The translations under genes were made by a program, and so were the position numbers. Under the pieces are notes generated by a model. It ran no database searches, was not told where the DNA came from, and saw only the letters and a list, made by a program, of their open reading frames with translations. 64,000 nt of DNA from a virus (Duplodnaviria > Heunggongvirae > Uroviricota > Caudoviricetes). The stretch lies in IMG/VR virus record IMGVR_UViG_3300045988_150439, one strand, 5' to 3'. This document shows positions 3,249 through 18,931 of the stretch, piece by piece. The number at the start of each line of letters is the position of its first letter. The first letter of the stretch is position 1.

Positions 3249-3518
3249 CTACTCCATGCTTTTCAGACGATCAGCAGCTCGTTTCAGCTTGTCGTTCGGT
3301 GCCGGAGGATTGCTTATAGCGTCCATAACCAGATTCCAGGATTCTTCATTCAGAACTAGTCTACGGTGTTGCTCTATAACTTTCACGGCACGTTCAGATG
3401 CACTGCTAACCATAAACTGAGTAATGCTCTGGTTAGACATTGCGGCAGCTTCCTCGATGATGCTTTTATCGTCATCGGTTAATCTCAAATCGATGCGCTG
3501 CTTTTTTAGTGCTGACAT
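3249..3518 (-). CDS. DUF1778-type ribbon-helix-helix antitoxin (TacA/AtaR-like)
   Basis: ORF 3249..3557; probable ATG 3518 follows GGAGG. About 89 aa with KKQRIDLRL strand then helices and PPAPN tail; precedes the GNAT gene. Confidence 0.65.
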   Translation of the reverse strand: MSALKKQRIDLRLTDDDKSIIEEAAAMSNQSITQFMVSSASERAVKVIEQHRRLVLNEESWNLVMDAISNPPAPNDKLKRAADRLKSME

Positions 3519-3836
3519 GTATTCCTCCTGATGGCCGTGATATAGGAAGGCCATCAATCTCCTCTGTTCAAACTGAGTTTTCGACTCAAAAATTACTTTA
3601 AAAGGCTATAGCCCATTACGTGTGCATTATCAAATTGTGTACGGCATATCACCGTACTTGTAATATAGAGGTCATTGTTACTTTTTTCAACAGGCAAATA
3701 CAAGCAATGATTGCCAATTGTTAACCACAACCTACCATTTTACCTTTACACCGCAGCCGTAGGCATTTAGGCTATATCACATATAAGAAAACAAGTTGTT
3801 TCAGACGATAATTATATACGCAAAGGGAACTCTCCA

Positions 3837-4505
3837 ATGACCAAGATCTTTGTGGTTGGCGGCACAAAGGGCGGGCCTGGCAAATCCACCGTTGCCCAGC
3901 AAATTGCCGTTTGCCTGAAAGTCAAAAAGAAGAAGAAGGTTTATATCACTGATATAGATATTCAGCGCACGACAACAAGCTGGTGTGAAGACCGTCGACA
4001 GAACGAAGATCTTGAGCTGATTCCTTTTGCATACGTTCAGGATGACATCATTAAGCACCTAAAATCGCTTCAGGGTAGAGCTGAGTTTGTAGTGGTAGAT
4101 GCTGGTGGCTTCGACTCCGAAATTCAGCGACAAGCGATGCTGATGGCTGACGTTATCATTATCCCGCTGCGTCCTAAGCGTCGTGATTTGAAATCTTTAC
4201 GTGACATCGATCCTATTATCGACAATGTTCGCAATGTAAACGATAAAGTGAAGGTCCGCGCGGTCATGAACCAGTGCCCGGCTTTGCCATCACAAGTGTC
4301 TCGCATTCTGGCGGCTAAAGAGATTGTTGAGACGTTTGGAATCGAGTCTGCGCCAGTCAATCTATATAACCGCAACGTCTATGATGATGCGGAAGAGTCT
4401 GGTCGTTCTATCTTTGAAATGACCGGTAGCGAGCGCGACAAAAAGGCGGAAGCCGAGTTTGAAGAATTTGTAGATTATCTGTTGAGTCTGGAGGAAGAAG
4501 AATAA
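3837..4505 (+). CDS. parA: ParA/Soj-type partition ATPase
   Basis: Deviant Walker A GGTKGGPGKST at N-terminus; 222 aa; stop overlaps start of downstream gene (TAATG). Confidence 0.8.
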   Translation: MTKIFVVGGTKGGPGKSTVAQQIAVCLKVKKKKKVYITDIDIQRTTTSWCEDRRQNEDLELIPFAYVQDDIIKHLKSLQGRAEFVVVDAGGFDSEIQRQAMLMADVIIIPLRPKRRDLKSLRDIDPIIDNVRNVNDKVKVRAVMNQCPALPSQVSRILAAKEIVETFGIESAPVNLYNRNVYDDAEESGRSIFEMTGSERDKKAEAEFEEFVDYLLSLEEEE

Positions 4506-4864
4506 TGTCCATGAAAATGGGTGACCTAGCAAAGCGCAAAGAGCCTGATGCACCGGCTAAGAACACAACTCCTTTGCGCCAACCAGTCAGACCACAGGGA
4601 CGCCCGACTCGTGGCAAAGAGAAAATTAAAAGCCGCACAATGTCACTGGAAGACGAATACTTCGAACTGCTGGAGATGATGAAGTTCATCCCTCGCTTCG
4701 AGAAGTTCACTCGTTCTGACGTGATTCGAGCAGCCATTTTCCATCTGGCAGAGAAGTCACCGCAGGAAATCGAGGACATCGTGAAGCTTAACGAGGCGAT
4801 CACAGCTGCCGACGTTACGATGCGTACCGATGAAATTAAACGAGAGTTGATGAAGAAAGGTTGA
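4505..4864 (+). CDS. small partition DNA-binding protein (ParG-like ribbon-helix-helix)
   Basis: 119 aa; basic N-terminus then RHH-like segment RTMSLEDEYFELLEMM...RSDVIRAAI; translationally coupled to parA. Confidence 0.5.
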   Translation: MSMKMGDLAKRKEPDAPAKNTTPLRQPVRPQGRPTRGKEKIKSRTMSLEDEYFELLEMMKFIPRFEKFTRSDVIRAAIFHLAEKSPQEIEDIVKLNEAITAADVTMRTDEIKRELMKKG

Positions 4865-4867
4865 TTA

Positions 4868-4890
4868 TATTGGGCGTTTGTTACGCCCAA
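4868..4890. repeat. perfect inverted repeat ttgggcgt / acgcccaa (hairpin or protein-binding site)
   Basis: Read directly; lies between the par operon and the AT-rich KAP gene. Confidence 0.4.
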
Positions 4891-4915
4891 TATATGAATT
4901 AAAGGATTGATACTA

Positions 4916-6610
4916 ATGGAATCGATAGAATCATTTCTAAAAAATTTTCTAGTTTCAGATCATCGGGTTGCCGTCATAAAAGGAGATTGGGGCGTTGGTA
5001 AAACTCATTATTGGAATAGTTTTTATACTAAGCATTCTGAAGGATTAGATTTTAATGCATATTCGTATGTTTCTTTGTTTGGGGTTAACTCTATTGGTGA
5101 TATTAAAAAAACTCTTTATCATTGTGCCACACCAATTAATGAAAAGAAATATAAAGAACTAATTTTATCTGAAACGGATCGAACTATGATTCGTTATAGA
5201 AATGGGTTTTGGGGATGGTTGAAATACAACTCCTTGTCAAAATTTTTAATACATTTCGGAAAGAACGATTTTTTTGGGTTCAAAACAGATAACCTGCTGT
5301 CATCTCTTGAGTATAAATTTGTTAATAATTATTTGGTTTGTATTGATGATGTTGAAAGAAAAGGTAATTCGCTAGAAGTTAAAGAAATTATGGGGGTAAT
5401 TGATGAATTAGCAAGAAGAAAAGGTTGCAAAGTTGTTCTAATTTTAAATGAAGATAATTTACATGATGAAACTGCAAAAAAACAGTTTTTAGAGTACAGA
5501 GAAAAAGTAATTGATGTCGAAATAAAATACGATCCTACGCCTGAGAAGAACTTACGTAAAGTTTTTTATGAAACTGATTCTGATTTTCTTTTGTTAAAAG
5601 TCTTAGCAAATGACTTAGGCATTAAAAATATCCGTATATTAAATAAAATAAAAACATCTCTGGTTAATCTTAGGAATGAGCTAAGCTTGGCAGAGGATAA
5701 GGTTAGAGAAAGTTTTATCAATAGATTGGTTCTGTTTTCAGTGGTTTACTATTCTGGTGTTCCAGGTGTTGATTATGCCTTGTTTAAAGAATCAATTAAA
5801 AACATACATGTATTTGATTACATGTTAGATGATAAAAAGGATGATTCTGTATATTCATTTATTAATAGTCTTGATATTATTTATGAACGAGCGGAAATTG
5901 CTTTCGATGATGACATAGATTTTTATCTCAAGAATGGTTATCTTTCTACTGAAAGCAATATTCGAGGTATAATAGAAGAAAAAAATAAACAATATAAAGA
6001 ACACAAGGCTTTATGTGAGGTTAACAATGTTTGGGATATTTTTAGTGACTCATTCAAGGACAATGAATCTGAGTTTATTTCTAAGATAAAATGTGTAATT
6101 AACGACAATCTTTCACACATACCTGTTGCTCACTTCATAGGCTTGATTGATATCTTAAATAGATTGTTGATTGATTGTGATAGTTATATAGAGGCATATG
6201 CAGATGCCTTTGTTAGCCAAGATGATGCTTATACTGCTTTTCGGAATTTGTATGTAGAGATATTTGGTAACGAAAAGTTAGGTCTGCTAATTCAAAAAAA
6301 ATTGATGGATAAGAAGCCTGAAGAGACTAATTTAGAGAATGTTTTATACAAAATAATTGAAGGCAAATTTAATCATAGTGACATAGCATATCTTAACAGT
6401 TTCTCTGAAGATGATTATTTAAAGTGGATATTATCCCGCAATCAGGATGCTTTGGATTTAGTGAGAAAGGGGTTGCTCAGATTCAAAAGTATGCAAGAAC
6501 TAACAGAAGAACAGCAAAAAATCACGAATAAAGCAATAGGTGCATTAACGAAACTGGCCTCTAGATCAAGTCTTAACAAACTACGTGTGAGCAGATTGCT
6601 TAATAATTAA
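4916..6610 (+). CDS. KAP-family P-loop NTPase
   Basis: ORF 4907..6610; ATG 4916 follows AAAGGA. Walker A GDWGVGKTHYW near N-terminus, DDVER Walker B-like; coding region clearly AT-rich relative to neighbours. Confidence 0.6.
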   Translation: MESIESFLKNFLVSDHRVAVIKGDWGVGKTHYWNSFYTKHSEGLDFNAYSYVSLFGVNSIGDIKKTLYHCATPINEKKYKELILSETDRTMIRYRNGFWGWLKYNSLSKFLIHFGKNDFFGFKTDNLLSSLEYKFVNNYLVCIDDVERKGNSLEVKEIMGVIDELARRKGCKVVLILNEDNLHDETAKKQFLEYREKVIDVEIKYDPTPEKNLRKVFYETDSDFLLLKVLANDLGIKNIRILNKIKTSLVNLRNELSLAEDKVRESFINRLVLFSVVYYSGVPGVDYALFKESIKNIHVFDYMLDDKKDDSVYSFINSLDIIYERAEIAFDDDIDFYLKNGYLSTESNIRGIIEEKNKQYKEHKALCEVNNVWDIFSDSFKDNESEFISKIKCVINDNLSHIPVAHFIGLIDILNRLLIDCDSYIEAYADAFVSQDDAYTAFRNLYVEIFGNEKLGLLIQKKLMDKKPEETNLENVLYKIIEGKFNHSDIAYLNSFSEDDYLKWILSRNQDALDLVRKGLLRFKSMQELTEEQQKITNKAIGALTKLASRSSLNKLRVSRLLNN

Positions 6611-6620
6611 GTATTCATGA

Positions 6621-6671
6621 CCTGTTTCTGTATATAAATAATAAGTAACTTATTAAATATACGGAAGCAGG
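6621..6671 (+). repeat. AT-loop hairpin element copy 1 (probable terminator)
   Basis: 15-bp stem cctgtttctgtatat / atatacggaagcagg with AT-rich loop; near-identical element at 56885..56941. Confidence 0.5.
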
Positions 6672-6788
6672 TCTTTCAAAAGATACCCACCAGAACAACT
6701 CCCTTCCGTTTCCACTTCCAAAAACTGCCACCAATCGCTATCATCAGCTCATTGTGATAAGTAAGTAACTACCTACCAGGTGAGCCAC

Positions 6789-7529
6789 ATGAGCCAAATC
6801 TTTTTCGACACCATCGACAACGACCAGTACGACTTCATGACAGAGTGGAATACCGCTGTTATGGATAAGTGGGTTGCTGAAAACATTGGTTTGTCGCGCT
6901 GCAAAGACGAGGCTGAACTCTTCGATACGAAGTGGTTTGATTACCGCGACATGCATCCTCTTATGGCCACCTGTCTGTTTACGGAGGCATACAAACGTCA
7001 GTACTCAAATATCATGCTGACGCACGGTCGCGAACACTTTGAAACAGCTCCGTTCACCACCGGGTTAAAACGCCTGCCTTATCAGGAGTTGTCGACTGCC
7101 AATAAAACGTCGCTATGGAAAGCACGCCAGTTTGCTGACCGCTATTGCTGCTCATACGACTACTTTATCTCCACCGTTCTTTCCGCAGCTGCACGACGTC
7201 TGTGGGACAAGCTGCCTCGCCCACAGCATTTGTGGCAGCCAGAACTGATTGAGATATTTGAAGAGAAATTAGCCAGACGCGCAACAACCCGTCTGGATGA
7301 CTCTCTGGTTAGCTTTAAGCATATAGGAGACATGCAGTTCAACCCGATCCAGGAAAGCTATTTTGAGTGGATTCTGGAGCGTTTACGCACCATCCCCCGC
7401 AGCAAGCGCATACGCGCAATTTTCTCCGCTATCTGGCTAATGGAAATCGTTCCAGAGCGCCTTATTTCCGCCCACTTTCCAGAAGAACTGGAAGAAGCAC
7501 GGCGGTTTATTGATCCCCTATCCAATTAA
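6789..7529 (+). CDS. hypothetical protein
   Basis: ORF 6780..7529; ATG 6789 follows AGGTGA; no motif recognised. Confidence 0.5.
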   Translation: MSQIFFDTIDNDQYDFMTEWNTAVMDKWVAENIGLSRCKDEAELFDTKWFDYRDMHPLMATCLFTEAYKRQYSNIMLTHGREHFETAPFTTGLKRLPYQELSTANKTSLWKARQFADRYCCSYDYFISTVLSAAARRLWDKLPRPQHLWQPELIEIFEEKLARRATTRLDDSLVSFKHIGDMQFNPIQESYFEWILERLRTIPRSKRIRAIFSAIWLMEIVPERLISAHFPEELEEARRFIDPLSN

Positions 7530-7572
7530 CTAATACTAGAAAACAATTTGTTTAAAAAACAAAGGAAAGCAC

Positions 7573-8913
7573 ATGACCGAACTTTGCCATACAGGACGCG
7601 GGCTGTCCGAAGAGTTTGATGAAGATTTCCAGAACAGACTGACGGCATATTTTTGTCGTGATCACGAGTTTCTTACTCGTGCGGGAGATCTGGTTGTGCC
7701 TAGCCAATTTGCCAATGCGGCCAATGCCATATTGGTTAATATGGTTTCGGGCTATTACCGTATGTACAAGAGCGCGCCCTCTTCATCTGCAATTCTGGAT
7801 ATGCTTAAGCGTGCGAAACGCGATAAGACTATCCGTGAGGAACTATTCGCCGATGTTGTTGCTGCGTTTAAGCGCATCCTTGCAGAAAAATTGTCCGATA
7901 CCTCGTACATGGTTGACCAGGTATCAACCTTCGCAAAAAGCGTAGCGTTTGATGATGCTCTGATTAAGGCTGCTGAACTGAAAGAGAAGGGCGACTTTCA
8001 GGGGGCGATGGCAATCATGGCCAAGGTTCAGCAGATTGGATCGAACGAAGCGACCGGAATCTATGACTACTACACCTCAGCAAGTGAGCGACTGAAAGCG
8101 CGTGAATATGAGGCCTCAGAGGAGTATGTGCCAAACAGTATTACAACTGGACTCCCTCTTCTCGATAGGTTGCTGTACCAAAAAGGCTGGGCAAAGCGCG
8201 AAATGGTGCTCTTCATGGGGTTCGCTAAATCCGGTAAATCGACCGCAATGGGTGAGTTTTCCATAAACGCAACGCTTGCTGGCTACAATGTTCTGTATCT
8301 CTCGCTGGAGGTTCACACCACCATTTTATCCGACCGTTTTGACGCAAGATTGTCGGAGACAGAAATGTCCAAGCTGGTGGAACGGCGCGATGAGGTTCAT
8401 CGTAAGTTGGCAGAGTTGGGAGCCACGAAGGGGATTGGTAGTTTGTGGGTGGTTGAGCGTCCGTCAGGAAGTATATCACCGGCAGATCTGGATCGTATGC
8501 TCAACAGCATGAAAGCCAATGGCATGGTGCCTGACATGGTTGTTGTCGACTACGCAGATTTGATGCGTGCCAGTTATGACCTTCGTGATGATCGCGCCAA
8601 CATTCGTAGTATCTACACCGATTTGCGTGCTCTTTATGACAAGCATAACGTTGCTGGGATCACGGCATCGCAGACAAACCGTGAAGGTGGCGCGTCAGAA
8701 GTTGCCACAATGATGCACGCTGCCGACAACATCGAAAAAGTACGTATTGCTGACCTGGTAATAACGATCAACAAAACCGAAGAAGAAGAAGCGAAAGGAG
8801 AGGCTCGTCTCTACTTTGCTGGTTCACGTAACCAGCAGGGAGGGATCAGCATTCGCGTTAAACAAAACCTCGAACAAATGCGCTTCATTGAGCGAATCTT
8901 AGACGTTACCTAA
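7573..8913 (+). CDS. DnaB-like replicative DNA helicase
   Basis: 446 aa; Walker A GFAKSGKST mid-protein, Walker B-like DMVVVDYADL, ASQTNREG region; primase gene follows. Confidence 0.7.
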   Translation: MTELCHTGRGLSEEFDEDFQNRLTAYFCRDHEFLTRAGDLVVPSQFANAANAILVNMVSGYYRMYKSAPSSSAILDMLKRAKRDKTIREELFADVVAAFKRILAEKLSDTSYMVDQVSTFAKSVAFDDALIKAAELKEKGDFQGAMAIMAKVQQIGSNEATGIYDYYTSASERLKAREYEASEEYVPNSITTGLPLLDRLLYQKGWAKREMVLFMGFAKSGKSTAMGEFSINATLAGYNVLYLSLEVHTTILSDRFDARLSETEMSKLVERRDEVHRKLAELGATKGIGSLWVVERPSGSISPADLDRMLNSMKANGMVPDMVVVDYADLMRASYDLRDDRANIRSIYTDLRALYDKHNVAGITASQTNREGGASEVATMMHAADNIEKVRIADLVITINKTEEEEAKGEARLYFAGSRNQQGGISIRVKQNLEQMRFIERILDVT

Positions 8914-14474: not shown

Positions 14475-14549
14475 GATGGTGTAGCTCAGCGGTAGAGCAG
14501 TTGGCTGTTAACCAACTGGTCGGTGGTTCGAATCCACCCACCATCGCCA
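14475..14549 (+). tRNA. tRNA-Asn (anticodon GTT)
   Basis: Cloverleaf by eye: acceptor gatggtg/caccatc, D-arm gctc..gagc, anticodon stem gttgg/ccaac loop ctGTTaa, T-arm ggtgg-ttcgaat-ccacc, encoded CCA. Confidence 0.85.
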
Positions 14550-14551
14550 AT

Positions 14552-14627
14552 GCCGGTTTAGCTCAGTTGGTAGAGCACCTGCCTTGTAAGCAGGATGTCA
14601 GCGGTTCGATCCCGTTAACCGGCACCA
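14552..14627 (+). tRNA. tRNA-Thr (anticodon TGT)
   Basis: Acceptor gccggtt/aaccggc, anticodon stem cctgc/gcagg loop ctTGTaa, T-loop ttcgatc, encoded CCA. Confidence 0.85.
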
Positions 14628-14720
14628 ACACAACAGGTAAGAGCATTGGGCGAATCGGCGATACTGACCCACAAGCCCGTAAATCGATAGAGTCAGACCA
14701 GTGCTCTTACCGTTGTGAGG
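14626..14720 (+). ncRNA. long hairpin unit 1 (possible small stable RNA)
   Basis: 15-bp stem acaacaggtaagagca / tgctcttaccgttgt (one mismatch) enclosing ~55 nt; shares stem-base cacaac/gttgtg with units 0 and 2. Confidence 0.3.
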
Positions 14721-14764
14721 AAGTGCAGCTCTTTGAAGCAACCAGAAGATAAGCATCTGGCTTC

Positions 14765-14850
14765 ACAACACAACGATAAGATCATTACGGTTAATCGTCG
14801 TTCATGTGCACAATGACTGGTCGAAAGGTAGTGATCTTACCGTTGTGATG
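14765..14850 (+). ncRNA. long hairpin unit 2 (possible small stable RNA)
   Basis: 16-bp stem cacaacgataagatca / tgatcttaccgttgtg (one mismatch); 3' flank cttaccgttgtga[g/t]gaa shared with unit 1. Confidence 0.3.
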
Positions 14851-14947
14851 AATGCACAGGCTGATGTGCCGCAACTACAGTAGTGCGCGCTTTGCGGGGC
14901 TTGCTACAACCCTGTGTCGGAGTTCAGCACCGACCATCACAATAGCT

Positions 14948-15034
14948 GGAGAGTAGGGAGCATGGTGCTCAAGCGGTCTTGAAAACCGTCCCATTGCGCA
15001 AGCGATGATGGTTCGATTCCATTACTCTCCGCCA
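14948..15034 (+). tRNA. tRNA-Ser (anticodon TGA), type II
   Basis: Acceptor ggagagt/actctcc, anticodon stem gcggt/accgt loop ctTGAaa, long variable arm, T-loop ttcgatt, encoded CCA; about 87 nt. Confidence 0.75.
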
Positions 15035-15189: not shown

Positions 15190-15210
15190 AAAGGGGCTTC
15201 GGCCCCTTTT
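15190..15210. terminator. bidirectional terminator hairpin
   Basis: aaaggggc-ttcg-gcccctttt, flanked by A/T runs on both strands, between plus-strand tRNAs and the minus-strand cassette. Confidence 0.55.
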
Positions 15211-15212
15211 CT

Positions 15213-16424
15213 TCAAAAAAGTTTTATAAATTCATAATTCTGGTCAATTAAGGATTCAATACACACCATGCAAAAATCTACATCGTTAAAATCAGGTGTG
15301 TAATATTCATCCTCATAACATTCATTTAGACCTTCAATCAATTTTTCTTTAAAAACTCCCCACGTTTCAATATGAACCATTTCCATATAAGGCGCATGTG
15401 TATGTACTTGCAATACATCCCAGGTGTCTATAACCTCGATCCGCGGCTTGCAATTAATTTTTTCTAAATATGCCCTCCCAGAATTGTAAATTTTCGACAT
15501 TGATGCCCCAAAACCTGATGGTTGGTAATGAGTGTAAATGTCATAAATTTTTTGTCCTATTCTAGGGAGTTGAGAAGCATTGGATATTTGTGGCGAATGA
15601 AAGTATCGCTCTATGGAAGAAAACGCAGAAACATTAACTAGAGTAATCGTATATGGTGCTAAAGTTCTCTCGTTCAAATTTCTACATAAAATAGCAAACC
15701 CATGGCTATTAGTCTTTTCACCGTCTGAGGACATTTTTGCCATGCTGGCTTTAATAACATTCAATTTCGAATGTAAACGAGAAGTGGAAGTCGGTTGATT
15801 ATACATTTCATCATCATACAAACATATATGAAACCCGCCAAGATGACGAAATGAGAACTTGAGTGCTTCTTCCGCAATAACTAATTTATTAATATCTAAA
15901 GGAGTAAGTGATACGTTACCTTGTAAATCATAGCAAGGTTCTAAACATAGAAAGTTTTTCTTCTGCCACACAATCATATTAAAAATAAAGTGTCTAACCA
16001 AAGGTGGCCAGTCAGGTGATATAAGTACATTGGTAATATCTCCATCAGACAAGTATGACAAGTAACTTTTTAGTTCCGCAGCATATGCCACTAGCTCAGT
16101 TCCAGCTTCCCTTGTTGGTGTTGAAAAATTTTTTAACTCAATAAGAACTAAGGATTCATTCTCTGTTGAATAAGCAACGACATCAGGTCTTAATATCTCA
16201 GATTTTGTTGCTGAGATATTTTCATCATCTGTCATTAAATGTAACAATGTTATATTCTTTAAACAAAACTGATAACTCTCCTTAATTTTTTTCTCTTCGG
16301 GTCTTTTCGGATTAAATTCATTTAATTTATCAATATTGATGATTGAATTATATAATCCATCTTGATCAGATAATTTGTCAATTATCCAATTTTGCATTTC
16401 CTTTTCGCTTAAAAATATTGACAC
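15213..16424 (-). CDS. 403-aa protein with PD-(D/E)xK-like nuclease motif; distal gene of AT-rich two-gene cassette (AbiGii position)
   Basis: GTG start; PDVVAY...SLVLIELK resembles a D..ExK restriction-endonuclease-fold motif; very AT-rich; 26 nt from upstream gene. Confidence 0.45.
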   Translation of the reverse strand: MSIFLSEKEMQNWIIDKLSDQDGLYNSIINIDKLNEFNPKRPEEKKIKESYQFCLKNITLLHLMTDDENISATKSEILRPDVVAYSTENESLVLIELKNFSTPTREAGTELVAYAAELKSYLSYLSDGDITNVLISPDWPPLVRHFIFNMIVWQKKNFLCLEPCYDLQGNVSLTPLDINKLVIAEEALKFSFRHLGGFHICLYDDEMYNQPTSTSRLHSKLNVIKASMAKMSSDGEKTNSHGFAILCRNLNERTLAPYTITLVNVSAFSSIERYFHSPQISNASQLPRIGQKIYDIYTHYQPSGFGASMSKIYNSGRAYLEKINCKPRIEVIDTWDVLQVHTHAPYMEMVHIETWGVFKEKLIEGLNECYEDEYYTPDFNDVDFCMVCIESLIDQNYEFIKLF

Positions 16425-16450
16425 TAATTAGGCTCCCGTTAAACCAAAAA

Positions 16451-17272
16451 TTAAAAATCTTGCTTTACTTTATCCATAGTCAGAATTTTGCTAATAATTG
16501 AAGATTCAAATCCATCTAAACCTGAGAGAAAGTTAATTAGCTTTTGGATATGTTGTTCTTTAGGTATAAGTATATATTTTATATCATTGAACTCAAAATC
16601 AATGCCAAACTTTGAAAATTTTGAGCTAATTTTTGCTTTGTCATCAGAAGTGATAACACGCTCCAAACTCAGACTAGGCCATAAATCACCAATAAAAGGA
16701 GCTGGCACATAACGCCACTCTTTCTCGTCTGCATATATATAATTCTCTATTGTTTTATTATCTTTTCGCTCTAGCTTGCCTCTGTAATTTTTCATATAAC
16801 GCAGTAAATTATATAGATCAGAATATTCTGCTTTCAATTTCTCAAACTCTATTCTGTTTTTGGTATCTAAATTTCCTCTAGCCTTCCAAAGCGGCACCAA
16901 CTTTTTTTTAATAAGTCGAATTCTGGCATTGTATTTAGAAAATATTTCACTGCTCTTATTCATATATAGAACTGGGTGTAGACCTTTCTTTTCCGCCCAA
17001 GACTTAGTTAGCCCAAGACCGAATTCCCCATATTTTCCGCTATGATCTCTGATTTGTGATAGTTTTATGTCACAAAACGATACCATTGGTACTGCAAACC
17101 TCCTGCGTCCCCCGACTCCTCTTATTTCCTCGCGAGCAAGAAATGGTTTAAAATATTTCTCAGCCAATATGCTATAGAAAGCATCTTCGTTTTTTGTAAA
17201 ATGAAACAACGTGGTTGGATGAAGACTATAAACAGATTCAACATTCGCATCAGGATTTTCAAGGATAGTCAT
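16451..17272 (-). CDS. AbiGi-like protein (candidate abortive-infection component)
   Basis: ORF 16451..17317; probable ATG 17272 follows AAGGTG. N-terminal LFHFTKNEDAFYSIL...PMVSFCDIKL...YGEFGLGL pattern resembles what I recall of AbiGi proteins; AT-rich. Confidence 0.4.
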   Translation of the reverse strand: MTILENPDANVESVYSLHPTTLFHFTKNEDAFYSILAEKYFKPFLAREEIRGVGGRRRFAVPMVSFCDIKLSQIRDHSGKYGEFGLGLTKSWAEKKGLHPVLYMNKSSEIFSKYNARIRLIKKKLVPLWKARGNLDTKNRIEFEKLKAEYSDLYNLLRYMKNYRGKLERKDNKTIENYIYADEKEWRYVPAPFIGDLWPSLSLERVITSDDKAKISSKFSKFGIDFEFNDIKYILIPKEQHIQKLINFLSGLDGFESSIISKILTMDKVKQDF

Positions 17273-17561
17273 TTTACACCTTGTGGAAAGCCAGTTTAGT
17301 TCTGTAAATAGTATCACACGACAGGCGGCTATTCTTCTATCAATAAAGGATAGGTAAGCACTTACTTTTTACGCGCGTTAATTGTATAGTTCTTTCGGAT
17401 ACTCACTTGAAAGGACTCAATATGGGAAATAAATGTAAACATGCGCGTCGCGCATCTCGTCAGGTGCAGAAGTCAAATCCATACATTCACGAGCACTACC
17501 ACCTCAGCTCTTTCACTAACCGCTACACGTTCCCCAGCGAAGCGCATAACGAGGCAAGGCA

Positions 17562-17807
17562 ATGACGATCACTATCTACGGACGAGATAACTGCTCATAC
17601 TGCAAACGTGCGGTCGAGCTGGCGAAGCAACTAAAGGGACATGGCTACGGTGATTATGAGTACATCGACATCACCACTGCCGGTATCGACAAGAAAAAAC
17701 TAAGTGAAATTGTTGGTAAACCGGTAGAGACTATCCCCCAGGTACTGATCGATGGCCAACCGATTGGCGGATACACAGAATTTGCTGCTTTTGCGAGCAC
17801 TCTGTAA
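17562..17807 (+). CDS. glutaredoxin-like redoxin
   Basis: 81 aa; CSYC active site near N-terminus; thioredoxin-fold size. Confidence 0.7.
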   Translation: MTITIYGRDNCSYCKRAVELAKQLKGHGYGDYEYIDITTAGIDKKKLSEIVGKPVETIPQVLIDGQPIGGYTEFAAFASTL

Positions 17808-17902: not shown

Positions 17903-18511
17903 ATGCGTTTAGAAAATTGCCTAGAAGATATGAGTGTCATTAGCAATGCCCTTGCTACTGTGACCTCTAACGCTTCACGCTTTTCAAACGCAAAGCCTAC
18001 AGCTAAATCTGGGCGTGATTTTATTGAACCGCGTGGATATCGACGCTTCCGTGGCACGATGAAGCCCTCTGCGAAATTCACAGGATTCAAAACACAAACC
18101 TATGTGAGCACTGCGGCTATTCCTGTTCAAGAGAACCGCGATGCGGCACAGCTGGCAAAGATTGAAAGCAAGCTCGCAAAATTGACGGCGAAACACGTTC
18201 GCTTAGCCCATGCCATCTCTGGATGGAAAGCGGAAAAGATTCGCAGCAACTTCGGTGAAAGTCGTTACGAAGAACTGAAGAACGTTGACCTGACCATTCG
18301 TGGTTTGGAGGGATTCGTTAACAAGTTGATTCGCGACTCTGAGCAACCTCATCCATATTTGAAACGCTTGAGCGATTCTGTAACTGAGTATCGTTTAGCT
18401 ATCTCTGATCTGCTATTGATTTTAAATCAGTGTTTTAACGACGTAAACGTCATCGAATCGCAGACTGGCCTCATTGATGAGGACGTCTTCGCCAACTTCT
18501 CATTCCATTGA
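17903..18511 (+). CDS. hypothetical protein (possible antitoxin partner of downstream YafO-like gene)
   Basis: 202 aa ORF, Ala/Lys-rich central helix; ends 10 nt before the downstream gene. Confidence 0.4.
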   Translation: MRLENCLEDMSVISNALATVTSNASRFSNAKPTAKSGRDFIEPRGYRRFRGTMKPSAKFTGFKTQTYVSTAAIPVQENRDAAQLAKIESKLAKLTAKHVRLAHAISGWKAEKIRSNFGESRYEELKNVDLTIRGLEGFVNKLIRDSEQPHPYLKRLSDSVTEYRLAISDLLLILNQCFNDVNVIESQTGLIDEDVFANFSFH

Positions 18512-18520
18512 GGTTGAACG

Positions 18521-18931
18521 ATGAAGATCACATGGAACAGTGATAGTTACGCCCAATTTTTAAAGCCGACCTTCGATATAAAGCCTGACTTAGAGATTAC
18601 GTTACTCAACGATTTCAAGTCGTTTAAACAAGGCATGTACCCAGCCCTATTCGGCAAAGATGGCCCGTATACGGCTCCTGGTGCTATCGTGTCCTCCCGC
18701 GTTTATCACGTTCATCTCTTGTTCACGAAGCAAGAACGAACCAGCAGCCGCAGCAGATTCAATTGCACAAGCGACCGTGCACTCGTTTACAGTCAACATG
18801 CACATTTCCAAGATGTGTATAGCCTATTGGCAATCTTCCCTAACAACGCACATCAGTACGCGAAAGATCCAAAAATTATGGTCGATATCGCTGCCTACGC
18901 GGCCGCATTTCAAGCTCTCACTAACCCTTAA
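18521..18931 (+). CDS. YafO-like toxin candidate
   Basis: 136 aa; FKSFKQGMYPALFGKDG, VYHVHLLF, ALVYSQHAHF, LLAIFPNNAH blocks resemble my recollection of E. coli YafO. Confidence 0.4.
   Translation: MKITWNSDSYAQFLKPTFDIKPDLEITLLNDFKSFKQGMYPALFGKDGPYTAPGAIVSSRVYHVHLLFTKQERTSSRSRFNCTSDRALVYSQHAHFQDVYSLLAIFPNNAHQYAKDPKIMVDIAAYAAAFQALTNP

What the first reader, a model, noticed from the sequence alone, without database searches (positions are those of the whole stretch)
15213..17317. AT-rich two-gene minus-strand cassette beside the tRNA cluster: candidate abortive-infection/defence module
Genes 16451..17272 and 15213..16424 run antisense to nearly all neighbours, are much more AT-rich than flanking genes, and are bracketed by terminators and the tRNA cluster, which is the pattern of a horizontally acquired insertion. 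Sizes (about 273 and 403 aa) and order match what I recall of lactococcal AbiGi/AbiGii; the first product has an LFHFT...PMVSFCD...YGEFGLGL N-terminus and the second a PD-(D/E)xK-like motif (PDVVAY...LVLIELK). In a phage-plasmid this would act as superinfection exclusion.
Basis: partly seen in the sequence, partly recalled or inferred. Interest (0 to 1): 0.75.

Follow-up and report, generated by a model that had tools for sequence, protein, structure and literature searches.

The report
AbiGi gene stacked with orphan nuclease
An E. coli phage-plasmid carries, in a swappable slot beside its tRNA genes, an AbiGi-family gene (a predicted ADP-ribosyltransferase) without its usual AbiGii partner, followed by an uncharacterised nuclease-like gene that elsewhere travels alone in prophages; the two are most likely separate candidate anti-phage genes, not a classical AbiG pair.

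Summary
Two minus-strand genes (16451-17272, 273 aa; 15213-16424, 403 aa) form a 2.3-kb AT-rich segment (GC 0.347 against 0.45; z -4) between tRNA-Ser and grxA of a ~110-kb E. coli phage-plasmid. Relatives carry other genes in that slot.

Gene 1 is an AbiGi-family protein (Pfam 5e-25, PADLOC 6.5e-47). Gene 2 is not AbiGii: it has no PF16873, PADLOC or NCBIfam hit, and hhalign probability is 0.15%, while genuine AbiGii proteins score 1e-44 to 1e-157.

Gene 2 belongs to an unannotated family (452 clusters at 50% identity). It has an invariant D81/E96-x-K98 PD-(D/E)xK core, which a pLDDT-92 model supports. The family is normally a lone cargo gene, most often directly after the integrase of P2/186-like prophages.

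The two genes co-occur only in this phage-plasmid lineage (19 of 5,426 complete E. coli genomes). A Klebsiella relative has AbiGi alone in the same slot. Best reading: two stacked, probably co-transcribed, single-gene defence candidates. Function is untested.

The parts
15217..17550 (.). Variable accessory segment (2,334 bp, GC 0.347) in the tRNA-Ser/grxA slot of the phage-plasmid backbone
   Evidence: Homology to cassette-less relatives (pYPE3-114k, phage Cyrano) stops at 15216 and resumes at 17551. Composition. The slot holds a Gp49-family gene, a 302-aa hypothetical gene or IS3 in relatives.
16451..17272 (-). AbiGi-family gene (273 aa), a predicted DarT-like ADP-ribosyltransferase with no AbiGii partner
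17195..17209 (-). AbiGi residues 22-26, LFHFT: candidate ART motif I (H-x-T, NAD binding)
   Evidence: Nearly invariant in 41 homologues. Replaced by K/N-x-M in the three AbiGii-partnered Firmicutes proteins. Coordinates checked. Assignment as motif I is an inference from the published signature.
17069..17089 (-). AbiGi residues 62-68, PMVSFCD: conserved block, candidate ART motif II (S-x-C)
   Evidence: P62, M63, S65, F66 and D68 are invariant in A2; F66, C67 and D68 are invariant in A4.
16712..16732 (-). AbiGi residues 181-187, ADEKEWR: candidate ART motif III (ExE catalytic glutamates E183 and E185)
   Evidence: E183, E185, W186 and R187 are invariant in every AbiGi aligned, including canonical ones.
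16425..16450 (-). 26-nt intergenic spacer with a GGGAG ribosome-binding site (16433-16437) 8 nt before the GTG start; no terminator
   Evidence: Co-transcription is inferred, not shown.
15213..16424 (-). 403-aa protein of an unannotated family: N-terminal PD-(D/E)xK nuclease domain plus a C-terminal alpha/beta region with no solved counterpart; not AbiGii
16083..16187 (-). Nuclease core, residues 80-114: PDVVAY...LVLIELK...TREAGTELVAY (D81, E96-x-K98, ExxxY)
   Evidence: P80, D81, E96, K98, R105, G108, T109, E110, A113 and Y114 are invariant in 37 sequences. Weak HSDR_N_2 hit at residues 64-129, E 0.008, repeated in long relatives. Coordinates checked.
15190..15209 (-). Hairpin AAAGGGGC-CGAA-GCCCCTTT with a T-rich tail, directly after the 403-aa stop codon; backbone terminator shared with cassette-less relatives
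   Evidence: Fold energy -13.2 kcal/mol, z only -1.83. Sequence. Lies inside the homology block that ends at 15216.
17384..17491 (.). phoH-derived remnant upstream of AbiGi (deletion scar); contains a terminator-like site at 17441-17455 (-)
   Evidence: About 87-89% identity to phoH of related phage-plasmids. The Klebsiella relative keeps phoH-gp49-grxA next to AbiGi. Terminator scan.
14475..15034 (+). tRNA-Asn, tRNA-Thr, tRNA-Ser cluster that forms the left border of the slot (context)
   Evidence: ARAGORN; Rfam.

Best explanation
The cassette is a stack of two independent single-gene accessory modules, most likely anti-phage, in the tRNA-Ser/grxA swap slot of a ~110-kb E. coli phage-plasmid. 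They are probably transcribed together from the minus strand.

Module 1 is an AbiGi-family protein of the Gram-negative clade that has no AbiGii. It is a predicted DarT-like ADP-ribosyltransferase (H-x-T ... S-x-C ... ExE). When triggered by infection it would use NAD+ to ADP-ribosylate a target, most plausibly nucleic acid, and so block phage replication or transcription.

Module 2 is a ~400-aa protein of an undescribed family. It has an N-terminal PD-(D/E)xK nuclease domain with an intact D/ExK catalytic centre, and a C-terminal alpha/beta region that I infer to be a sensor or regulator. It would cleave DNA on activation.

Shown here: family memberships, non-membership in AbiGii, predicted folds, conserved catalytic residues, independent genomic distributions, the breakpoints of the segment, and the swap-slot behaviour. 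Inferred: enzymatic activities, targets, triggers, co-transcription, and the defence phenotype itself.
For: Identity of gene 1: PF10899 E 5e-25 and PADLOC AbiGi E 6.5e-47.

Gene 2 is not AbiGii: no PF16873, PADLOC or NCBIfam hit at E<=1. BLASTP E is 0.49 and 0.74 against lactococcal and enterococcal AbiGii. hhalign probability is 0.15%. Controls score 1e-44 to 1e-157.

Independence: none of 13 non-plasmid loci of the 403-aa family has AbiGi, and none of 16 further viral loci does. Eleven viral loci are CI-integrase-403aa in P2/186-like prophages, which is a documented minor defence hotspot (PMC13586616). None of 80 genomic AbiGi loci and none of 15 non-phage-plasmid viral AbiGi loci has the 403-aa family. 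No neighbour family recurs: at most 3 loci by BLAST clustering, at most 2 of 78 tightly linked neighbours by Pfam, and there is no AbiGii HMM hit. The Klebsiella phage-plasmid has AbiGi alone in the same slot, ending 15 nt from the tRNA-Ser/terminator block. IncF plasmids carry a 71%-identical AbiGi without AbiGii, beside Avs4.

Accessory nature: the cassette is in 19 of 5,426 complete E. coli genomes and 18 of 1,241 related plasmid hits, and the slot holds other cargo in relatives.
Against: In E. coli the two genes are always found together (19 of 19 genomes). They share a strand, are 26 nt apart and have no terminator between them, which is also what a functional pair would look like. All 19 copies are 98.8-100% identical, so they amount to one acquisition and give no independent support either way.

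One AbiGi homologue is fused to an HNH nuclease domain (P0091), so AbiGi can work together with a nuclease.

No phenotype is known for any AbiGi that lacks AbiGii, or for the 403-aa family. PADLOC (2023) does not contain the 403-aa family.

The AbiGi locus sample was selected with patterns specific to the PMVSFCD clade, so 'no partner' applies to that clade only.
Confidence: 0.6

Rival explanations
1. The two genes form a new functional two-component system in which the PD-(D/E)xK protein replaces AbiGii as AbiGi's partner. One protein would sense or mark, the other would execute.
For: Same strand, a 26-nt gap with a ribosome-binding site, and no intervening terminator. The genes are always together in the 19 E. 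coli genomes. The size and order mimic abiGi-abiGii, which are 1-2 nt apart in Lactococcus, Enterococcus and Bacillus. An HNH-AbiGi fusion exists.
Against: The pairing occurs in one nearly clonal phage-plasmid lineage only. It is absent from 80 genomic and 15 viral AbiGi loci, and from about 29 loci of the 403-aa family. The Klebsiella relative keeps AbiGi alone in the same slot. Each gene is common as a lone cargo gene elsewhere.
Confidence: 0.2
2. One reading: a canonical lactococcal-type AbiG (AbiGi/AbiGii) abortive-infection system.
For: Gene 1 is in the AbiGi family. The gene sizes (273 and 403 aa against 293 and 397 aa) and the gene order match.
Against: Gene 2 fails every AbiGii test while controls pass. 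Gene 1 scores 51 bits against the AbiGI equivalog cut-off of 300. Motif I differs between this clade and the AbiGii-partnered proteins.
Confidence: 0.02
3. The genes are not defence genes. They serve the phage-plasmid itself. The ADP-ribosyltransferase could reprogram host proteins during lytic growth, as T4 Alt/ModA/ModB do (my own knowledge), and the nuclease could act in DNA processing, host DNA degradation, plasmid addiction, or as a solitary modification-dependent (type IV-like) restriction enzyme.
For: Phage-encoded ARTs that modify host proteins exist (established knowledge, not tested here). HSDR_N/Mrr-like and McrC-like similarities fit a restriction-type nuclease. No phenotype data exist. 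In P2-like prophages the 403-aa gene follows int and is probably expressed in lysogens, which fits any lysogenic-conversion function.
Against: The distribution is sporadic and the locus swappable, and most close relatives lack both genes, so they are dispensable for the element's life cycle. Both families sit in documented defence hotspots or beside defence genes such as Avs4, the P2 int-att hotspot, STING, RM genes and ArdA. A type IV restriction role would still count as defence.
Confidence: 0.15

Closest known systems
Lactococcal AbiG system (abiGi + abiGii, plasmid pCI750 type)
   Same: Gene 1 belongs to the same Pfam/PADLOC family as AbiGi, with the conserved F-C-D, Y-G and ExE-W-R blocks. 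Both have a two-gene, same-strand layout on a mobile element and similar protein sizes.
   Different: The second gene is unrelated to AbiGii. AbiGi here is only about 25-29% identical to the lactococcal protein and far below the equivalog cut-off. It keeps an H-x-T motif that the three AbiGii-partnered proteins lack. AbiG's own mechanism is still unknown; its reported trigger is a phage major tail protein (PMC13064643).
DarT of the DarTG toxin-antitoxin/defence system (DNA ADP-ribosyltransferase)
   Different: There is no detectable sequence similarity to PDB DarT sequences. No DarG-like macrodomain antitoxin lies next to it: none in the window, and none among the Pfam families listed for 78 neighbours. 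AbiGi has a long helical insertion (residues 110-157) and an extra C-terminal region of about 80 aa. The activity and target are untested.
Standalone or effector PD-(D/E)xK nucleases (NucS/EndoMS, XisH-like, McrC, Mrr/HSDR_N, LmuA)
   Same: The 403-aa protein has the D...ExK catalytic triad followed by an ExxxY motif, and the core fold. It is a single gene carried by mobile elements, like several defence nucleases.
   Different: No family-level membership: HSDR_N_2 scores 16.7 bits against a cut-off of 25, there is no PADLOC model, and the profile finds no PDB sequence. The C-terminal ~230 residues have no convincing structural counterpart. Many relatives carry a further unknown extension of about 350 aa.
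Defence hotspots of temperate phages (P2 int-att hotspot; accessory slots near tRNA loci in SSU5-type phage-plasmids)
   Same: The slot behaves like a hotspot, with alternative cargo at identical breakpoints. The 403-aa family recurs in the P2 int-att position described in PMC13586616. Insertions near tRNA loci in SSU5-group phage-plasmids are reported in 10.1101/2025.09.12.675607.
   Different: This particular cargo has not been reported. The phage-plasmid survey lists no AbiG among its complete defence systems, and searches for the protein accessions and PHROG ids found no paper.

Membership tests
AbiG two-gene system (AbiGi + AbiGii) | First protein matches the AbiGi family model | tested here: met
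   PF10899 E 5.2e-25 (89 bits, cut-off 22.4); PADLOC AbiGi E 6.5e-47 over residues 27-288.
AbiG two-gene system (AbiGi + AbiGii) | First protein is an equivalog of lactococcal AbiGI (NCBIfam NF042957) | tested here: not met
   51 bits against a curated cut-off of 300.
AbiG two-gene system (AbiGi + AbiGii) | Adjacent downstream protein matches AbiGii (PF16873 or the PADLOC/NCBIfam AbiGii models) | tested here: not met
   No hit at E<=1 in Pfam, PADLOC or NCBIfam. BLASTP E 0.49 and 0.74. hhalign probability 0.15%. No hit with an AbiGii HMM at E<=10. Genuine AbiGii controls score 1e-44 to 1e-157.
AbiG two-gene system (AbiGi + AbiGii) | Abortive-infection phenotype that needs the operon | not testable with these tools
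   No experimental data exist for this locus. The original AbiG paper (PMC168098) is not held.
ADP-ribosyltransferase superfamily (DarT-like) | ART fold | tested here: met
ADP-ribosyltransferase superfamily (DarT-like) | [quoted passage not shown] | tested here: inconclusive
   H24-F25-T26, S65-F66-C67 and E183-K184-E185 are conserved and fit the published signature. I could not superpose coordinates to confirm that they occupy the active-site positions.
ADP-ribosyltransferase superfamily (DarT-like) | Sequence-level relationship to a solved ART | tested here: not met
   The A2 profile finds no PDB sequence at E<=10. Only weak DUF2971 hits, in 8 of 41 members, best E 0.047. The published relationship rests on FFAS/HHsearch.
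DarTG system | Adjacent DarG-type macrodomain antitoxin | tested here: not met
   No macrodomain in the window cassette, and none among the 25 Pfam families listed (of 98 found) for 78 tightly linked neighbours of AbiGi homologues; no family recurs in more than 2 of them.
ADP-ribosyltransferase superfamily (DarT-like) | NAD+-dependent ADP-ribosylation activity | not testable with these tools
   Needs biochemistry.
PD-(D/E)xK nuclease superfamily (403-aa protein) | Catalytic D ... (D/E)xK residues conserved | tested here: met
   P80-D81, E96 and K98 are invariant in 37 sequences spanning 32-52% identity.
PD-(D/E)xK nuclease superfamily (403-aa protein) | Restriction-endonuclease-like core fold | tested here: met
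Pfam HSDR_N / HSDR_N_2 (Mrr-like nuclease domain) | Score above the gathering threshold | tested here: not met
   16.7 and 12.7 bits against cut-offs of 25. Similar sub-threshold hits recur in long relatives.
Known anti-phage systems in PADLOC-DB v2 (2023) | 403-aa protein or its long relatives match a model | tested here: not met
   No family for the 403-aa protein. Ten relatives gave only two marginal hits, E 6e-4 and 1e-3.
Type IV toxin-antitoxin (the 'AbiGi antitoxin' label) | A toxic partner neutralised by AbiGi | not tested
   Dy et al. 2014 found neither lactococcal AbiGi nor AbiGii toxic in E. coli (PMC3985639). Nothing is known for this locus.

The most novel reading that the evidence does not exclude
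A 'mark-and-cut' pair. AbiGi ADP-ribosylates invading (or replicating) DNA as DarT does, and the downstream PD-(D/E)xK protein is a modification-dependent nuclease whose C-terminal domain recognises ADP-ribosylated DNA and cleaves it. The phage-plasmid lineage would then have assembled a new two-step immunity from two parts that also work alone. A more modest version: the 403-aa family is a new single-gene defence system, and AbiGi proteins without AbiGii are autonomous ART effectors.
Probability: 0.04. Interest if true: 0.85.

Novelty: new variant of a known kind. Interest (0 to 1): 0.45.

Why it matters
Three things follow if the reading holds.

1. The widespread database label 'AbiGi antitoxin' is misleading. 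In Gram-negative bacteria and Bacteroidota, AbiGi is a partner-less, motif-complete predicted ADP-ribosyltransferase scattered through mobile elements. That makes AbiG's long-unknown mechanism directly testable (NAD+ use; H24 and E183/E185 mutants).

2. The 403-aa family (452 clusters at 50% identity) is an unannotated candidate single-gene defence nuclease. It recurs right after the integrase of P2/186-like prophages, where it is probably expressed in lysogens. It is absent from PADLOC 2023.

3. Defence finders that require both AbiG components will miss loci like this one, so the defence cargo of phage-plasmids circulating in clinical and livestock E. coli is under-counted.

None of this is a new principle. 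It is a cheap and specific set of experiments.

Tried and rejected
- Sequence searches of both proteins and both family profiles against PDB sequences found nothing useful: no hit, or E 1.2 to an unrelated protein.
- PADLOC, NCBIfam and Pfam gave no family for the 403-aa protein beyond a sub-threshold HSDR_N hit. PADLOC and Pfam on ten long relatives did not identify their C-terminal extension.
- I looked for a hidden RNA antitoxin or repeat array in the cassette. There are no tandem repeats and no Rfam match other than the tRNAs.
- I considered that ORF 17407-17565 was a remnant of the Gp49-family gene. Rejected: homology to Gp49-carrying relatives resumes only at 17551, and the stretch matches phoH instead.
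- I considered that the terminator after the 403-aa gene marks the cassette's end. Rejected: it is backbone sequence.
- I considered a DarG-like partner or any other conserved AbiGi partner. None was found by BLAST clustering, an AbiGii HMM or a Pfam scan of neighbours.
- Literature searches for the RefSeq accessions and PHROG ids returned nothing. The original AbiG paper is not held.
- A ligase-based search meant to place the element in a named phage-plasmid group was not decisive, because the 'spread' listing hid the close hits. I therefore call it only 'SSU5-type-like' and mark that as untested.
- My first breakpoint script mixed several records held in one file. I redid it per record.
- I could not cut the models into domains or superpose coordinates. 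The fold of the C-terminal domain and the placement of the active-site residues remain open.
Full report

Yes. The window has two adjacent minus-strand ORFs. One is at 15213-16424 (403 aa, GTG start). The other is at 16451-17272 (273 aa from ATG); the mechanical ORF extends to a GTG at 17317. RefSeq annotates the same two genes in a 99.6%-identical plasmid. tRNA-Asn, tRNA-Thr and tRNA-Ser lie at 14475-15034 on the + strand, and nearly all flanking genes are also on the + strand.

GC is 0.331 and 0.341 for the two genes and 0.347 for the 2,334-bp variable segment, against 0.4505 for the window. That is z = -3.98 relative to non-overlapping windows of the same size.

A hairpin (15190-15209, -13.2 kcal/mol) with a T-rich tail follows the 403-aa stop codon. 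A terminator-like site lies upstream of AbiGi at 17441-17455.

**2. What element is this, and is the segment an insertion?**

The region matches circular, non-mobilizable E. coli plasmids of about 110 kb at 97-99.6% identity. It matches phages Cyrano and CMS-2020a only in the flanks. The element is therefore a phage-plasmid, probably of the SSU5 type, though I did not test that placement.

Only 18 of 1,241 matching plasmid records carry the cassette. Among complete E. coli genomes it is in 19 of 5,426, always on a plasmid and always with both genes.

Alignment with relatives places the breakpoints at 15216/15217 and 17550/17551. The same slot holds other cargo elsewhere:
- a Gp49-family gene in pYPE3-114k and phage Cyrano;
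- a 302-aa hypothetical gene in pEcoFMU073332c;
- IS3 in another plasmid.

The hairpin after the 403-aa gene lies inside the shared backbone, so it belongs to the tRNA cluster and not to the insert. The stretch 17384-17491 is a remnant of phoH.

**3. Gene 1 is an AbiGi-family protein.**

Pfam PF10899 gives E 5.2e-25 and PADLOC AbiGi gives E 6.5e-47. It is not an equivalog of lactococcal AbiGI: 51 bits against a cut-off of 300.

**4. Gene 2 is not AbiGii.**

It has no hit to PF16873 or to the PADLOC and NCBIfam AbiGii models at E <= 1. I retrieved genuine abiGi-abiGii operons from Lactococcus, Enterococcus and Bacillus plasmids, in which the two genes are 1-2 nt apart. Their AbiGii proteins score 1e-157, 1e-44 and 1e-74 on PF16873. 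Against the 403-aa protein, BLASTP gives E 0.49 and 0.74. Profile-profile comparison gives a probability of 0.15%.

**5. What gene 2 is.**

It belongs to a family with no Pfam domain and only 'hypothetical' names. There are 54 clusters in the word-indexed search and 452 clusters at 50% identity in the exhaustive profile search. Many of those are 700-750 aa long, with the 403-aa-like module at the N-terminus followed by an unidentified extension.

In 37 aligned members (32-52% identity to the window protein) the invariant residues include P80-D81, E96-x-K98 and R105, G108-T109-E110-x-x-A113-Y114. That is a complete PD-(D/E)xK signature followed by a RecB-like ExxxY motif.

The C-terminal ~230 residues give only generic ferredoxin-like or Rep-like matches. 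I could not search that region on its own.

**6. What AbiGi is likely to be.**

This is not a new idea. A 2025 survey of ART families lists AbiGi (PF10899) as a known but poorly studied ART-like family. [quoted passage not shown] In contrast, the 2026 review of lactococcal Abi systems states that AbiGi and AbiGii have no structural matches and that AbiG's mechanism is unknown; its trigger is a phage major tail protein (PMC13064643).

In the window protein the candidate motifs are H24-F25-T26, S65-F66-C67 and E183-K184-E185. The ExE, F-C-D and Y-G blocks are invariant in all AbiGi proteins I aligned. The H-x-T motif is kept in the Gram-negative clade but replaced by K/N-x-M in the three AbiGii-partnered Firmicutes proteins. 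That is a small sample.

Neither lactococcal AbiG protein was toxic in E. coli (PMC3985639), so the 'antitoxin' and 'toxin' names are not experimentally grounded.

**7. Do the two genes belong together?**

The evidence says mostly not.

*The 403-aa family without AbiGi.*
- Thirteen non-plasmid loci from eight homologues lack AbiGi, confirmed by tblastn.
- Six of those loci are directly after the integrase of P2/186-like prophages.
- Two lie inside a conjugative element. The rest are in integrase/ArdA, umuDC or defence-like islands, or after uvrB.
- In IMG/VR, 11 of 18 loci show CI -> integrase -> 403-aa gene. The gap after the integrase is 1-20 nt, or a small overlap, in ten of them.
- Only the two contigs of this same phage-plasmid have AbiGi.
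- The integrase-att interval of P2 is a documented minor defence hotspot (PMC13586616).

*AbiGi without the 403-aa family.*
- None of 80 AbiGi loci from reference genomes holds a member of the 403-aa family.
- None of the 15 viral AbiGi loci outside this phage-plasmid does either.
- No neighbour family recurs. BLAST clustering gives at most 3 loci. An AbiGii HMM finds nothing at E <= 10. Among 78 tightly linked same-strand neighbours, no Pfam family appears more than twice, and neither AbiGii_2 nor a macrodomain is among the families listed.

*Close relatives.*
- A Klebsiella phage-plasmid with the same backbone has AbiGi (about 70% nucleotide identity) alone in the same slot. It ends 15 nt from the tRNA-Ser/terminator block. 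The 403-aa gene is therefore exactly the extra piece in the E. coli lineage.
- IncF plasmids carry a 71%-identical AbiGi without AbiGii in the leading region, next to Avs4.

*Against independence.*
- In E. coli the two genes are always together. They are 26 nt apart, with a GGGAG site 8 nt before the GTG and no terminator between them.
- One AbiGi homologue is fused to an N-terminal HNH domain.
- The 19 E. coli copies are 98.8-100% identical, so they represent essentially one event.

**8. Most likely mechanism.**

I commit to two stacked, co-oriented and probably co-transcribed single-gene modules.
- AbiGi acts as an infection-activated, DarT-like ADP-ribosyltransferase. A nucleic-acid target would fit the transcription and replication blocks reported for lactococcal AbiG and what is known of DarT (my own knowledge).
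- The 403-aa protein acts as a self-regulated PD-(D/E)xK DNase whose C-terminal region senses a trigger.

Shown: family identities, the exclusion of AbiGii, predicted folds, conserved catalytic residues, distributions and breakpoints. Inferred: activities, targets, triggers, co-transcription and the defence phenotype.

Confidence is about 0.9 for the identity statements and about 0.6 for the full statement.

Rivals:
- a genuine new two-component system (0.2);
- functions that serve the phage-plasmid itself, or a type IV-like restriction role (0.15);
- canonical AbiG (0.02).

**9. Novelty and score.**

AbiGi's presence is already annotated in RefSeq, and its ART affinity is published. New here:
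- the partner is shown not to be AbiGii;
- this AbiGi clade has no conserved partner;
- the 403-aa family is delineated as a recurrent lone cargo nuclease of prophage int-att sites.

No paper mentions these proteins. The phage-plasmid survey lists no AbiG among its complete systems. I rate the finding a new variant of a known kind, interest 0.45. It gives specific, cheap experiments, but nothing here overturns current views.

Noticed in passing
window 3500-7800 (ORFs 3837-4505, 4505-4864, 4907-6610, 6780-7529): This is the only other island in the window as AT-rich as the cassette (2,334-bp GC minimum 0.340). It holds a ParA/MipZ-like ATPase and a 567-aa KAP-family P-loop NTPase that matches the PADLOC candidate PDC-S49 (E 6.9e-22), so it may be another defence candidate.
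   Followed up: partly
window 17903-18931: A second swap slot lies between grxA and the integrase. Here it holds a 202-aa protein of no known family plus a YafO-family toxin (PF13957, E 8e-22). Both are absent from pYPE3-114k, and phage Cyrano has a 184-aa minus-strand gene there instead.
   Followed up: partly
window 17384-17491: This stretch is about 87-89% identical to part of phoH in related phage-plasmids. The Klebsiella relative keeps phoH-gp49-grxA next to AbiGi, so the window lineage seems to have lost phoH and gp49, leaving a scar.
   Followed up: partly
window 14634-14932: About 300 bp between tRNA-Thr and tRNA-Ser are absent from pEC16-2 and phage Cyrano but present in pYPE3-114k. 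No tRNA or Rfam family was found there. Part of it (14702-14769) is conserved in the Klebsiella relative.
   Followed up: no
L099 (Salmonella Dublin plasmid pSD_88), 4001-4822 and 5361 onward: IncF plasmids of E. coli and Salmonella carry a 71%-identical AbiGi without AbiGii in the leading region (psiB, ParB, DUF905), convergent with an Avs4 gene. This is a small defence cluster in a region that enters the recipient first.
   Followed up: no
P0091 (411 aa; alignment A4): An AbiGi homologue has an N-terminal HNH nuclease domain (PF01844, PF14279). It is the only domain fusion seen among the 120 listed homologues.
   Followed up: no
P0220-P0318 (proteins): A large branch of the 403-aa superfamily is 700-750 aa long. 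The nuclease module sits at the N-terminus and is followed by a ~350-aa extension with no Pfam or PADLOC match.
   Followed up: partly
L012 2976-3908 and L016 3414-3965: In some P2/186-like prophages a further cargo gene lies between the CI repressor and the integrase (a 310-aa unknown, or a bPH_3/SHOCT protein), upstream of the int-403aa pair. This is a second small variable position in the lysogeny operon.
   Followed up: no
alignment A4: The putative NAD-binding H-x-T motif is present in AbiGi proteins of the Gram-negative clade but is K/N-x-M in the three AbiGii-partnered Firmicutes proteins. This may mean partnered AbiGi proteins have a degenerate motif I. The sample is only three canonical sequences.
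   Followed up: partly
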